Shown here in pieces: positions 10,964 through 13,404 of a DNA stretch of 64,000 nt (position 1 is the first letter of the stretch; the number at the start of each line of letters is the position of its first letter). The position numbers were made by a program, and so were the translations under genes. Below the pieces are notes generated by a model. That model was not told the DNA's origin, did no database searches, and saw nothing but the letters and a program-made list of their open reading frames with translations. The DNA is from a virus. The DNA lies in the IMG/VR virus record IMGVR_UViG_3300021389_000012, positions 12,530 through 76,529 of that record; one strand, 5' to 3'.

Positions 10964-12136
10964 ATGACACAGAATCTATTTGAAAATTGGGACGTAACAA
11001 AAGACGCCCTTACAGATGGCTTAGAAGGTAACAAAAAAGTTGTAATGGAGAGCGTTCTTGAGAATACTAAGAGCTATCTTTCAGAATCAGCTGCAGCTGG
11101 CTCAACTATGGCAGGTAACGTTGCATCACTTAACAAAGTGATTCTTCCAGTTATTCGTCGTGTTATGCCAACAGTTATCGCAAACGAACTAGTAGGCGTA
11201 CAGCCTATGACTGGTCCAGTAGGACAAATTCACACACTACGTGTAAGATATGGCCAAACAGCAGCTGGTGTTACAGCTGGTGACGAAGCACTATCACCTT
11301 TCGCAATTGCAAAAGGTTACTCAGGTGACGCATCAAACGGTACGGCAACTTCAACTTCTTCAATGGAAGCAGAAGCTGGTAAGAAACTTTCAATCCAAGT
11401 ATTGAAACAAACTGTTGAAGCGAAAACACGTAAACTATCAGCACGTTGGACTTTTGAAGCGGCACAAGATGCTAATTCAATGCACGGTCTAGATGTTGAA
11501 GCAGAAATCATGCAAGCACTTGCACAAGAGATTACTGCTGAAATCGATCAAGAAGTGATCGGTTCACTACGTACACTTGCTGGAACGGCAACTGATACGT
11601 TTGATCAGGCAGCAATTGCAACAGCTCACCCAGGACATACTTTTGTCGGTGATACGCATGCGGCGTTGGCAGTTCTTATTAACAGATCAGCTAACTTAAT
11701 TGCAGCACGTACACGTCGTGGCGCAGGTAACTACGTGGTGATTTCACCAACTATGTTAACTGTACTACAAAGTGCAACAACTTCAGCGTTCGCAAGAACA
11801 ACTGAAGGTCCATTTGAAGCTCCAACTAACACTAAATTTGTTGGTACTTTAAACGGCACTATGCGTGTTTTTGTTGACCAGTACGCGGCGGATAACGCTC
11901 CTGTACTAGTTGGCTACAAAGGCGACGGTGAAATTGATGCGGCAGCTTTCTATTGCCCATACATCCCACTAATGTCTTCAGGCACAGTACTTGATCCATC
12001 AACTTTCGAGCCAACAGTATCATTTATGACACGTTATGGCTATGTAGAGCTAAACAACCAGGCTTCATCTCTTGGTAACGCAGCTGACTACCTAAGCAAA
12101 ATTGATGTAACAGCAGCTAACCTTTCTTTTGCATAA
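10964..12136 (+). CDS. major capsid protein (T4 gp23-like)
   Basis: ELVGVQPMTGPVGQI, AKTRKLSARWT, AAAFYCPYIPL and FMTRYG; probable maturation site YLSE|S. Confidence 0.97.
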   Translation: MTQNLFENWDVTKDALTDGLEGNKKVVMESVLENTKSYLSESAAAGSTMAGNVASLNKVILPVIRRVMPTVIANELVGVQPMTGPVGQIHTLRVRYGQTAAGVTAGDEALSPFAIAKGYSGDASNGTATSTSSMEAEAGKKLSIQVLKQTVEAKTRKLSARWTFEAAQDANSMHGLDVEAEIMQALAQEITAEIDQEVIGSLRTLAGTATDTFDQAAIATAHPGHTFVGDTHAALAVLINRSANLIAARTRRGAGNYVVISPTMLTVLQSATTSAFARTTEGPFEAPTNTKFVGTLNGTMRVFVDQYAADNAPVLVGYKGDGEIDAAAFYCPYIPLMSSGTVLDPSTFEPTVSFMTRYGYVELNNQASSLGNAADYLSKIDVTAANLSFA

Positions 12137-12160
12137 TATTTGCAAATAAAAAGTTACACT

Positions 12161-12191
12161 AAAATAGGGCCTTTAGGGGCCCTATTTTTTT
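12161..12191 (+). terminator. Rho-independent terminator after the MCP gene
   Basis: AAAATAGGGCC-ttta-GGGGCCCTATTTTTTT. Confidence 0.85.
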
Positions 12192-12196
12192 CACTC

Positions 12197-12243
12197 ACGT
12201 TCATCCTATTATAGGACGGAAGTAGCAATAGCGAAGGAACGCA
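12197..12243 (+). promoter_or_regulatory. glnA / Downstream-peptide-type (glutamine) riboswitch aptamer
   Basis: CGTTCA-TCCTA(tta)TAGGA-CGGAAGTA-GC(aata)GC-GAAGGAACG matches the three-way-junction consensus as I recall it (P1 CGUUC/GAACG, GGAAGUA and GAAG joining strands). Confidence 0.75.
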
Positions 12244-12267
12244 CTTAACTGTAAAAAGGAGAGTGTT

Positions 12268-12420
12268 ATGAATCACAGAGACTTCGAACTAGCTCGTAAA
12301 AAAGAGCGTACAAAACGATCACACAAAGCAATTCACAAGAAACAACTGCAAAGACCTTTGTCTAGACCACGTGCTGACAAGAATATACTAAGTTCAGACC
12401 CTAGATTACAGAAAATTTAA
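12268..12420 (+). CDS. 50-aa Arg/Lys-rich peptide downstream of the riboswitch (absent from the ORF track)
   Basis: RBS AAGGAG at 12256-12261, then MNHRDFELARKKERTKRSHKAIHKKQLQRPLSRPRADKNILSSDPRLQKI*. Confidence 0.7.
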   Translation: MNHRDFELARKKERTKRSHKAIHKKQLQRPLSRPRADKNILSSDPRLQKI

Positions 12421-12439
12421 TTTTTTTTAAAAAAAAAGG

Positions 12440-12468
12440 TTGACCTTTATGCAAAAACGTTGTATATT
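12440..12468 (+). promoter_or_regulatory. sigma70-type promoter
   Basis: TTGACC, 17 bp spacer, TATATT, with an upstream A-tract. Predicted +1 is about 12475. Confidence 0.7.
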
Positions 12469-12474
12469 AAGTAT

Positions 12475-12691
12475 ATAAGCAACAAAGAGTTTAGCGGCTC
12501 AATGTTTATAGTGCAAGGAAGAGGCGTTACCTAGGCGTCGAACTTGACTGCTCAGGGGTTATACCCAGGCTTTACATGGAAAACATGGGGAGTCACATTG
12601 CGGATACGCAGGAGTAGGTGGTAGTGTAAATAGAAAAGGTATCTAGATGTGCTACTTGGAGGTGTACCCCAGTCCTCCCTATTTTGCTTAT
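12475..12691 (+). ncRNA. candidate ~217-nt structured ncRNA (family not recognised)
   Basis: Has its own promoter and terminator. 5' ATAAGCAA pairs with 3' TTGCTTAT. It has multiple internal hairpins, is GC-richer than its surroundings and has no ORF. Confidence 0.7.
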
Positions 12692-12694
12692 TCT

Positions 12695-12718
12695 AAAAAG
12701 ACGCTTCGGCGTCTTTTT
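12695..12718 (+). terminator. Rho-independent terminator (UUCG loop)
   Basis: AAAAAGACGC-TTCG-GCGTCTTTTT. Confidence 0.85.
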
Positions 12719-12801
12719 CTTTGAGCAGCCAAAAAAGGTTTGTCTTTGATAAATACATATATAATAAATAACATATAAGGAAGTAGTAGGAAGAAAGCAT
12801 T

Positions 12802-13404
12802 ATGTCATCACACATTAACCCAGACTCTGGAACATTAGTTGTAGAAAGCACTAACGCATTAGACGTTACAGCATCACCTGTAGATCCTGTTGGCGCAGCT
12901 CTACATGTTAAAGGCGGAACATACACAGAACATAATTTGTATGTTGGTGGAACATTACTTGTAAACGGAGATGTTATCTCGTTAGGTAATGGAAACGCAT
13001 CTATTACAATTAATGCAAATGTTAGCAGTGATGTACTACCAAACGTAGCATCAGGTATACAATATAATTTAGGTAGTAACGGTAATCCGTGGAATAAAGC
13101 ATACTTACAGAAAATAGTAATAACAACTACATCAGTAACTAATTCATCAACCCTCAATACAACAGGTTTAGTATATATAAACTCAAGTACAAGTCTTGCA
13201 TTGGCTTTGGCAAATGGGACAGAAGGTGAGAAAAAATCATTAGTTGTTACTACATCACTACCTAGCACAGTAGTTATAACTCCAGATACTTTTGTAAACG
13301 GTACAAGCGTGTCATTTACAACAATAGGACAAAGTATTGAGTTAATATATACAAGTGCTGGATGGGCTATTACTTCTAGTTTTGGAAATCCTAGCGTAAG
13401 CTAG
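12802..13404 (+). CDS. virion structural / decoration protein
   Basis: 200 aa, S/T/G/V-rich beta-type composition; late promoter at 12749-12755. Confidence 0.6.
   Translation: MSSHINPDSGTLVVESTNALDVTASPVDPVGAALHVKGGTYTEHNLYVGGTLLVNGDVISLGNGNASITINANVSSDVLPNVASGIQYNLGSNGNPWNKAYLQKIVITTTSVTNSSTLNTTGLVYINSSTSLALALANGTEGEKKSLVVTTSLPSTVVITPDTFVNGTSVSFTTIGQSIELIYTSAGWAITSSFGNPSVS

What the first reader, a model, noticed from the sequence alone, without database searches (positions are those of the whole stretch)
12440..12718. Self-contained ~217-nt ncRNA gene with closing stem and possible pseudoknot
Seen: a complete transcription unit with a sigma70 promoter whose predicted +1 (12475) coincides with the closing helix ATAAGCAA/TTGCTTAT (12684-12691), followed immediately by a UUCG terminator. 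Internal arms are AACA..GAGTT/GGCTC..TGTT, CAAG..GGCGTT/GGCGTC..CTTG, a multiloop TGCTC/GAGTA holding CATG/CATG and TGCG-GATA-CGCA, GGTAGT/GCTACT, and GGAGG/CCTCC. The loop ACCCC (12666-12670) of the last arm can pair with GGGGT (12555-12559). It lacks tRNA, tmRNA, RNase P and SRP hallmarks. Inference: a new phage structured RNA (ribozyme-like, decoy or 6S-like) expressed early from within the late region. Together with the adjacent riboswitch-peptide unit it forms an RNA island.
Basis: partly seen in the sequence, partly recalled or inferred. Interest (0 to 1): 0.82.

Follow-up and report, generated by a model that had tools for sequence, protein, structure and literature searches.

The report
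Free-standing manA-family RNA gene
The flagged stretch is a real gene for a folded RNA of about 220-245 bases in an uncultured marine giant phage. It is a divergent copy of the catalogued "manA" phage RNA, which a 2026 preprint shows forming RNA-only cages in vitro, and here it is laid out as a separate RNA product, not as a switch for the next gene.

Summary
The transcription unit is real: promoter TTGACC-17-TATATT (12440-12468), an RNA whose ends pair (12475-12482 with 12684-12691), and a GACGC-UUCG-GCGUC-U5 terminator (12695-12719). It is not a new class. It is 71% identical to a stretch of Pelagibacter phage Mosig that scores 64 bits against Rfam manA (RF01745, cut-off 55.2). Eleven of 12 relatives score 40-62 bits. 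The window's own clade gets no Rfam hit at all.

At least 115 viral contigs carry a homologue. In a 70-sequence alignment, 86% of cells pair (36-51% in slid controls) and 41 of 70 pairs show changes on both sides. Loop-loop pairs L5-L7 (UAU/AUA here), L3-L8 and L8-L9 are supported. These are the contacts that a 2026 cryo-EM preprint shows holding manA pentamers, decamers and a 60-mer cage together.

Of 80 distinct copies, 73 have the promoter and 52 a terminator of unrelated sequence. I found no antiterminator signal, and the next gene has its own late-type motif. My reading is a free-standing, probably self-associating RNA whose function in infection is unknown. Earlier agents of this scan reached the same reading on other phage genomes.

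The parts
12440..12468 (+). Sigma-70-type promoter: TTGACC, 17-nt spacer, TATATT
   Evidence: Promoter scan gives 10 of 12 matches. The same box arrangement is found upstream of 73 of 80 distinct homologous copies and is conserved against phage Mosig.
12475..12482 (+). P0 5' strand (ATAAGCAA), at the predicted transcript start
   Evidence: Pairs with 12684-12691. Helix 1: 87% of cells paired, 4 of 8 pairs with changes on both sides (AU/UA, CG/UA). This helix lies outside the Rfam manA model (alignment).
12483..12504 (+). First hairpin (CA..GAGUU / GGCUC..UG)
   Evidence: Present in the fold. Helix 2 has 6 of 9 pairs with changes on both sides. It corresponds to the first hairpin of the manA model.
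12508..12511 (+). Outer stem of the manA core, 5' strand (AUAG), pairing with CUAU at 12679-12682
   Evidence: Equivalent to the [[[[[ ]]]]] stem in the cmscan alignment of the Mosig copy. 100% of cells paired (helix 3).
12514..12546 (+). P3 hairpin (CAAG..GGCGU / GCGUC..CUUG) with loop L3 UACCUAG (12528-12534)
   Evidence: helices 4 and 5, 98-100% paired. L3 UACCU is complementary to AGGUA in L8.
12548..12617 (+). Four-way junction domain. P4 is 12548-12553 / 12612-12617. P5 is 12555-12566 with loop L5 GUUAUA. P6 is 12568-12594 with loop GAAAA. P7 is 12599-12610 with loop L7 GAUA.
   Evidence: helix 6 is 99.5% paired with 5 of 6 pairs covarying, helix 7 is 100% paired, and helices 8 and 9 covary. 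L5 positions 3-5 (UAU, 12560-12562) are complementary to L7 AUA (12604-12606). The same positions read GGU/ACC, UGU/ACA and UGC/GCA in other clades.
12620..12656 (+). P8 long hairpin with apical loop L8 AAAGGUA (12635-12641)
   Evidence: In one search, helix 10 has 8 of 9 pairs with changes on both sides. GG-AU in the loop is invariant or nearly so.
12658..12678 (+). P9 hairpin GGAGG/CCUCC with loop L9 UGUACCCCAGU
   Evidence: helix 12 is 100% paired with 2 covarying pairs. UACC in L9 (12665-12668) can pair with GGUA in L8.
12679..12691 (+). 3' strands of the outer stem (CUAU) and of P0 (UUGCUUAU)
12695..12719 (+). Intrinsic terminator: A5, GACGC-UUCG-GCGUC, U5
   Evidence: Read directly and folds as a separate hairpin. 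52 of 80 distinct homologous copies have a hairpin plus T-run at this place, in 30 different sequences.
12748..12756 (+). GATAAATAC late-type promoter motif of the next gene (ORF 12802-13404); not part of the RNA but marks its boundary
   Evidence: 9 copies in the window against 1.06 expected. All 9 lie 17-63 nt before the start of an ORF of 113-929 aa.

Best explanation
Window 12475 to about 12718 is a free-standing gene for a divergent member of the manA RNA family (Rfam RF01745). Shown: it has its own sigma-70-type promoter, a fold whose helices covary across at least 70 distinct relatives, and an intrinsic terminator that does not overlap the fold. Shown: hairpin loops L5/L7, L3/L8 and L8/L9 are mutually complementary, and the L5-L7 pair keeps its complementarity through several different sequence 'codes' (UAU/AUA in this clade). 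Inferred: the host polymerase transcribes it early, and it is released as an RNA of about 220-245 nt with paired ends. Inferred: it acts as an RNA product, not as a leader for the next gene. Inferred by analogy with the cryo-EM structures of other manA RNAs: the complementary loops make contacts between molecules, so copies join into closed, pentamer-based oligomers. What such particles do during infection is unknown.
For: Homology: blastn finds 70.9% identity over 227 nt with phage Mosig, and that Mosig stretch scores 64.0 bits against manA with a cut-off of 55.2. nhmmer finds the full element in about 115 of 120 fetched viral contigs. 11 of 12 relatives tested match manA over the whole model at 40-62 bits. 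Structure: 86.1% of cells paired against at most 50.6% in slid controls, covariation score 0.355 against at most 0.12, and invariant G-U pairs that fit the + strand only. Loop contacts: L5-L7 is fully paired in 7 of 9 distinct loop combinations (permutation p about 0.0007); L3-L8 is 92.8% paired with an A-U to U-A swap specific to this clade; L8-L9 is 76.8% paired. The preprint 10.64898/2026.07.01.735769 reports L5-L7', L8-L9' or L3-L8' kissing loops holding manA pentamers, decamers and a 60-mer together. Free-standing layout: 73 of 80 copies have the promoter and 52 of 80 a terminator. The 30 distinct terminators start 11-23 nt after the outer stem, show no excess complementarity to the element (mean z -0.4 and -0.7), and the terminator hairpin survives in the minimum-free-energy fold of 29 of 30 full transcripts. 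The next gene has its own late-type motif. Downstream genes differ widely among relatives: redoxin, gp32, mannose-6-phosphate isomerase, radical SAM, rubrerythrin and unknowns. There is one copy per record in four large records. Expression hint: contigs from two small marine RNA-seq runs of different studies lie wholly inside the element (12498-12686 and 12498-12672, no differences).
Against: The Rfam manA model does not detect the window copy or its closest relative L033, even at permissive thresholds, so membership rests on transitive homology and shared architecture. No transcript ends were measured. All RNA runs were contigs, which cannot show ends or levels, and RNA libraries can contain DNA; one X1 contig runs through the terminator into the next gene. 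Oligomer formation is known only in vitro, at high RNA concentration, and for other family members. The L5-L7 contact here is only three A-U pairs, and covariation cannot tell an intramolecular from an intermolecular contact. Nineteen of 80 relatives lack a terminator and lead straight into a gene or a late promoter, so a leader role exists in part of the family.
Confidence: 0.72

Rival explanations
1. It is a riboswitch or other cis-acting leader, as manA is catalogued. The fold senses a metabolite or condition and controls termination at 12719, and so read-through into the 200-aa gene at 12802.
For: Weinberg et al. 2010 rated manA as a probable cis-regulator and possible riboswitch. Promoter, aptamer-like fold, terminator and gene is the classic order. 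19 of 80 relatives have no terminator and run into an ORF or a late promoter. In Mosig-type copies the ORF starts 22-31 nt after the fold. An RNA-library contig spans the terminator.
Against: The terminator does not overlap the conserved fold. 30 unrelated terminator sequences show no excess complementarity to the element, and the terminator stays folded in 29 of 30 minimum-free-energy folds. Downstream genes are functionally unrelated. The next gene carries its own late-type motif. No ligand is known 16 years after the motif was described.
Confidence: 0.15
2. It is a monomeric trans-acting RNA such as a protein sponge, decoy, ribozyme or 6S-like polymerase binder, and the loop-loop pairs are intramolecular tertiary contacts that lock a compact fold.
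For: The layout is free-standing. L5 and L7 sit on neighbouring arms of one four-way junction, where intramolecular loop kissing is geometrically plausible, as in purine riboswitches (my own knowledge). Covariation cannot tell intramolecular from intermolecular pairing.
Against: The solved manA structures show these same loop pairs made between molecules. There is no Rfam match to 6S, ribozymes or other families. The fold is not the rod with a central bubble that defines 6S RNA.
Confidence: 0.1
3. It is a new RNA family unrelated to anything catalogued.
For: No Rfam hit to the window copy at any threshold tried.
Against: There is continuous sequence homology to copies that match manA over the full model, with the same order and number of helices.
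Confidence: 0.02

Closest known systems
manA RNA motif (Rfam RF01745; Weinberg et al. 2010, PMC2864571; cryo-EM preprint bioRxiv 10.64898/2026.07.01.735769)
   Same: Same helix plan: a first hairpin, an outer stem, P3, a four-way junction with P5-P7, a long P8 and P9. It shares a conserved junction sequence with copies that match the Rfam model. L5/L7, L3/L8 and L8/L9 are complementary, and these are the loop pairs that hold the solved oligomers together. The habitat is the same: marine T4-like phages.
   Different: The Rfam model gives no score here. The L5 and L7 loop sequences are changed (GUUAUA/GAUA instead of the GUGGUG/ACCA-type consensus), and L6 is GAAAA rather than a strict GNRA tetraloop. 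An extra closing helix P0 joins the two transcript ends. It has its own promoter and a non-overlapping terminator, which is not the 5'-UTR position the family is catalogued with. The host phage is a jumbo-phage relative, not a cyanophage (major capsid protein 67% identical to PA5oct and Vibrio 2.275.O). My mapping of helices onto the preprint's P/L numbers is inferred from helix order and from L6 being the GNRA-type loop; I could not see the figures.
phi29 prohead RNA (pRNA) (from my own knowledge, not tested here)
   Same: A phage-encoded RNA of similar size, transcribed on its own, that forms a closed ring of copies through intermolecular pairing of two short hairpin loops. Those loop sequences covary between related phages.
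   Different: There is no sequence or fold relationship. pRNA works on the packaging motor of phi29-like podoviruses, and no such role is indicated here.
Large RNA-only multimers ROOL, GOLLD and OLE (as cited in the preprint's discussion)
   Same: Natural bacterial or phage non-coding RNAs of unknown function that self-assemble without protein.
   Different: Those are several hundred nucleotides long and form dimers or dihedral assemblies. This RNA is about 220 nt and belongs to the family reported to build pentamer-based cages.

Membership tests
manA RNA (Rfam RF01745) | Score at or above the curated gathering score (55.2 bits) with the Rfam covariance model | tested here: not met
   No manA hit in the window at gathering, at E<=10 on 801 nt or 261 nt, or in the whole 76.5-kb record. 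The closest relative L033 also gets no hit at E<=1.
manA RNA (Rfam RF01745) | Sequence homology to members that pass the family threshold | tested here: met
   70.9% identity, E 3e-11, to the Mosig copy, which scores 64.0 bits. L009 scores 61.9 bits and L065 57.7 bits, and nine more score 40-54 bits over model positions 1-192. nhmmer links all of them to the window copy.
manA RNA (Rfam RF01745) | Helix architecture of the model: 5' hairpin; outer stem enclosing P3, a multiloop with three hairpins, a long hairpin and a last hairpin | tested here: met
   The window fold has the same helices in the same order as the model structure line. All 12 helices are supported on 70 sequences.
manA RNA (Rfam RF01745) | L5-L7 loop complementarity (the 'pseudoknot?' of Weinberg 2010; the L5-L7' kissing loop in the cryo-EM structures) | tested here: met
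   UAU (12560-12562) pairs with AUA (12604-12606). The same positions covary as GGU/ACC, UGU/ACA and UGC/GCA, with permutation p about 0.0007. That Weinberg's 'pseudoknot?' is this pair is my inference; the figure is not held.
manA RNA (Rfam RF01745) | Position in the 5' UTR of a protein gene (catalogued type: cis-regulatory) | tested here: not met
   A terminator at 12695-12719 and a separate late-type motif at 12748 stand between the RNA and the next ORF. 52 of 80 relatives are also terminated.
manA RNA (Rfam RF01745) | Self-assembly into pentamer-based closed oligomers | not testable with these tools
   Known only from cryo-EM of other members. This needs in vitro transcription and native analysis.
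Riboswitch with a transcription-termination platform | Terminator that overlaps the aptamer, or competes with it through an alternative pairing | tested here: not met
   The terminator stem begins 11-23 nt after the outer stem. The z-score of arm-to-element duplex energy is -0.4 (5' arm) and -0.7 (3' arm) against shuffled arms. The terminator is intact in 29 of 30 minimum-free-energy folds. This is a thermodynamic test only and does not test kinetics.
Two-piece (permuted) tmRNA | tRNA-like acceptor/T-arm ending in CCA, plus a tag reading frame | tested here: not met
   I considered this because the Melnitz hit lay under an SsrA annotation. That match covers only the glutamine-riboswitch part of my query. 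ARAGORN and the Rfam tmRNA models find nothing in the window.
6S RNA | Long, mostly double-stranded rod with a central open-promoter-like bubble | tested here: not met
   The fold is a multi-junction RNA with six hairpins. No Rfam 6S match.

The most novel reading that the evidence does not exclude
The loop pairs that build manA cages in vitro are under selection in nature and have diverged into clade-specific 'kissing codes': UAU/AUA in this clade, and GGUA/UACC, UGU(C)/(G)ACA, UGC/GCA and AGU/ACU elsewhere. That would mean these free-standing, early-transcribed RNAs really do self-assemble into RNA-only particles inside infected marine bacteria. It would also mean that RNAs of different co-infecting phages are kept from mixing, much as phi29 pRNA loop pairs are phage-specific.
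Probability: 0.25. Interest if true: 0.8.

Novelty: new variant of a known kind. Interest (0 to 1): 0.45.

Why it matters
manA has been an orphan 'riboswitch candidate' since 2010, and in 2026 it became the first natural RNA reported to form an icosahedral cage, though only in vitro and with no known biology. This locus and its relatives add three things. Second, most copies in this clade are complete transcription units with their own promoter and terminator, which fits an RNA product better than a gene leader. Third, the loop pairs used as intermolecular interfaces in the structures are kept complementary through several different sequences. Together these make the question 'do RNA cages form and matter during phage infection?' testable with defined natural variants.

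Tried and rejected
1. Rfam on the window at three settings and on the whole record gave no hit to the element. By itself that would have suggested novelty; the homologue route overturned it.

2. The permuted-tmRNA idea came from the SsrA annotation under the Melnitz hits. I rejected it because the overlap is with the glutamine riboswitch only.

4. An antiterminator search found no signal.

5. A search for a second copy in the window with a family HMM found only the known site.

6. The terminator scan reports 0 sites, most likely because the A-run/T-run pairing extends the stem past its rule. I read the terminator from the sequence instead.

7. Laying RNA runs gave contigs only, so no ends, strand or level can be claimed. 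Uncovered parts in X11 and X13 prove nothing.

8. The MAFFT columns for L7 are shifted by one between the clades with a longer and a shorter P7 stem (CGCUC against UGCG or UUCC). I therefore tested L5-L7 on loops extracted per sequence in a script, not with the count of structure pairs.

9. Five of the 16-mer hits (L019, L031, L037, L049, L093) were chance matches, and I left them out of alignment A3.

Full report
**What is there.**
- Between the 50-codon ORF that ends at 12420 and the ORF that starts at 12802 there is no reading frame longer than 28 codons.
- The sequence carries TTGACC (12440-12445), a 17-nt spacer and TATATT (12463-12468). The promoter scan scores this 10 of 12.
- Seven nucleotides after the -10 box, ATAAGCAA (12475-12482) begins. 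It pairs with TTGCTTAT (12684-12691).
- Three nucleotides further on lie A5, GACGC-TTCG-GCGTC and T5 (12695-12718).
The minus strand folds less well, at -63.6 kcal/mol.
- ARAGORN finds no tRNA or tmRNA.
- Rfam finds only the glutamine riboswitch at 12196-12245 (55.1 bits). It finds nothing for the element, even at E<=10 on short sub-windows.

**What it is.**
- A blastn search of isolated phages finds one relative of the element: a 229-nt intergenic stretch of Pelagibacter phage Mosig, 70.9% identical.
- That stretch scores 64.0 bits against Rfam manA RNA (RF01745, gathering score 55.2) over the whole model.
- Of 12 relatives scanned, 11 match manA over model positions 1-192 at 40-62 bits, two of them above the cut-off. 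The window's nearest relative, L033, gets no hit at E<=1.
- The window copy therefore sits at the far edge of a continuum that reaches into the catalogued family.
- There is one copy in the window and one per record in four large records.

**Structure.**
- I aligned 70 distinct copies (A3), after removing five chance hits.
- On that alignment the structure taken from the window fold and the manA model pairs 86.1% of cells, against 35.6-50.6% when the 3' partners are slid by 1-3 columns.
- 41 of 70 pairs show changes on both sides. The covariation score is 0.355, against at most 0.12 in the slid controls and 0.141 in shuffles.
- Invariant G-U pairs (for example columns 102/126) fit an RNA of the + strand, not a DNA cruciform.
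- The closing helix P0, which joins the predicted 5' end to the last nucleotides before the terminator, covaries (AU/UA, CG/UA). It lies outside the Rfam model.

**Tertiary contacts.**
- Three of that pseudoknot's guanines form the P5 stem, which itself covaries.
- Three other loop-loop pairs stand out instead.
  - L5-L7: positions 3-5 of the P5 hexaloop pair with the P7 tetraloop as UAU/AUA in the window clade, and as GGU/ACC, UGU/ACA and UGC/GCA elsewhere. Seven of nine distinct loop combinations are fully paired (permutation p about 0.0007).
  - L3-L8: UACCU (12528-12532) with AGGUA (12637-12641). 92.8% of cells pair, against at most 38% in slid controls. An A-U to U-A swap is specific to the window clade.
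  - L8-L9: GGUA (12638-12641) with UACC (12665-12668). 76.8% of cells pair, with one swap in another clade.

**Link to the literature.**
- Weinberg et al. 2010 described manA as a probable cis-regulator and possible riboswitch of marine phages, with a doubtful pseudoknot.
- A July 2026 preprint (10.64898/2026.07.01.735769) reports cryo-EM structures of five manA RNAs. They form decamers, octamers and a 60-subunit icosahedral cage, all built from pentamers.
- Those pentamers are held by intermolecular kissing loops: L5-L7' with L8-L9' in one RNA, or L5-L7' with L3-L8' plus a GNRA-loop contact of L6 in another.
- Counting helices 5' to 3', my three loop pairs carry the same names, and P6 here ends in GAAA or GAAAA. 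The mapping is inferred from helix order, because the figures are not held.
- The comparative data therefore pick out, independently, the contacts seen between molecules in the structures.

**Layout and likely mode of action.**
- I compared 80 distinct copies that have enough flanking sequence.
  - 73 have the promoter boxes.
  - 52 are followed by a hairpin plus T-run.
  - 14 are followed by TATAAATA.
  - 5 are followed by an ORF within 35 nt.
- The 30 distinct terminators start 11-23 nt after the outer stem. They have unrelated stem sequences and show no excess complementarity to the element (mean z -0.4 and -0.7 against shuffled arms). The terminator hairpin stays intact in the minimum-free-energy fold of 29 of 30 full transcripts.
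- In the window, the next gene has its own GATAAATAC motif at 12748. That motif occurs 9 times in the window against 1.06 expected, always 17-63 nt before an ORF, so I read it as this phage's late promoter.
- Genes that follow the element in relatives are unrelated to one another: redoxin, gp32, a mannose-6-phosphate isomerase/cytidylyltransferase, a radical SAM/SPASM protein, rubrerythrin and unknowns.
- All this fits an RNA product better than a switch. A minority of copies, Mosig among them, are true leaders, so both uses may exist.

**Expression.**
- Thirteen runs recorded as RNA hold all or part of the 701-nt stretch I searched (12150-12850). In four runs of one marine study 76-92% of the sampled words are present.
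- When laid on the window, two very small RNA-seq runs from different studies each give one contig that lies wholly inside the element with no differences: 12498-12686 in X11 and 12498-12672 in X13. In X13 nothing else of the 1.2-kb stretch is covered.
- These are contigs, so they cannot show ends, strand or abundance, and RNA libraries can contain DNA. I count this only as a weak hint.

**Host phage.** The record is 76.5 kb, and CheckV estimates it as 21% complete. Its major capsid protein is 67% identical to those of jumbo phages such as Pseudomonas PA5oct and Vibrio 2.275.O. The carrier is therefore probably a marine jumbo myovirus, not a cyanophage.

**Verdict.** The interpretation as a new class does not. 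This is a divergent, free-standing variant of the known manA RNA. The most likely mechanism is a separately transcribed RNA whose complementary loops join copies into closed oligomers. Its role in infection is unknown. Earlier follow-ups of this scan came to the same reading on other marine phage genomes; I reached it independently before consulting them.

Noticed in passing
window 12196-12420: A glutamine riboswitch (RF01739, 55.1 bits) is followed by AAGGAG and a 50-codon Lys/Arg-rich ORF with no Pfam or PHROG match. The riboswitch motif lies within 600 nt upstream of the manA-type RNA in 28 of 77 relatives, and Rfam confirms it in L009, L051 and L080. The two RNAs therefore travel together.
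   Followed up: partly
window 2371, 6342, 12748, 22416, 30770, 34645, 41225, 42831, 49931: GATAAATAC occurs 9 times against 1.06 expected, each time 17-63 nt upstream of an ORF start. It is probably this phage's late promoter, a variant of T4's TATAAATA. The same TTTGATAAATAC string follows the terminator in many relatives.
   Followed up: partly
L017 954-1040; L080 3486-3559: Matches to freshwater-2 RNA (RF02980) lie downstream of the manA-type RNA, about 90 nt downstream in L080 and about 500 nt in L017. L017 scores 77.2 bits (above the cut-off) and L080 scores 46.6 bits (just below). This is a third structured RNA in the same neighbourhood in some phages. It was not found in the window.
   Followed up: no
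L013 4516-4781; L026 2105-2378; L044 4554-4828; L001 2086-2538: Permuted (two-piece) tmRNA genes lie 2-2.5 kb from the manA-type RNA in three contigs. In phage Melnitz the tmRNA abuts a glutamine riboswitch, but that genome has no manA match.
   Followed up: no
L112 about 2170-2210; L002 about 2715-2750: In leader-type copies, the Shine-Dalgarno region of the next gene (AAUAGGA in L112, AUAGG in Mosig) is complementary to the 3' strand of the P9/outer stem (UCCUAUU). This could be a translational platform in which folding of the RNA frees the ribosome site. I saw this by eye only.
   Followed up: no
window 10964-12136: The major capsid protein is 67% identical to those of jumbo phages (Pseudomonas PA5oct, Vibrio 2.275.O, Sinorhizobium Phosso). 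With 21% estimated completeness for 76.5 kb, the genome is probably about 350 kb. Several other contigs carrying the RNA (G001-G003) have similar size estimates.
   Followed up: partly
window 12802-13404: The 200-aa Ser/Thr/Asn/Val-rich ORF after the RNA has no Pfam or PHROG match. It precedes a 1071-aa protein of unknown function (its only PHROG match is unannotated) and a 527-aa ORF that matches tail-fibre and virion-structural PHROGs, so it may be a fibre-related virion protein.
   Followed up: no
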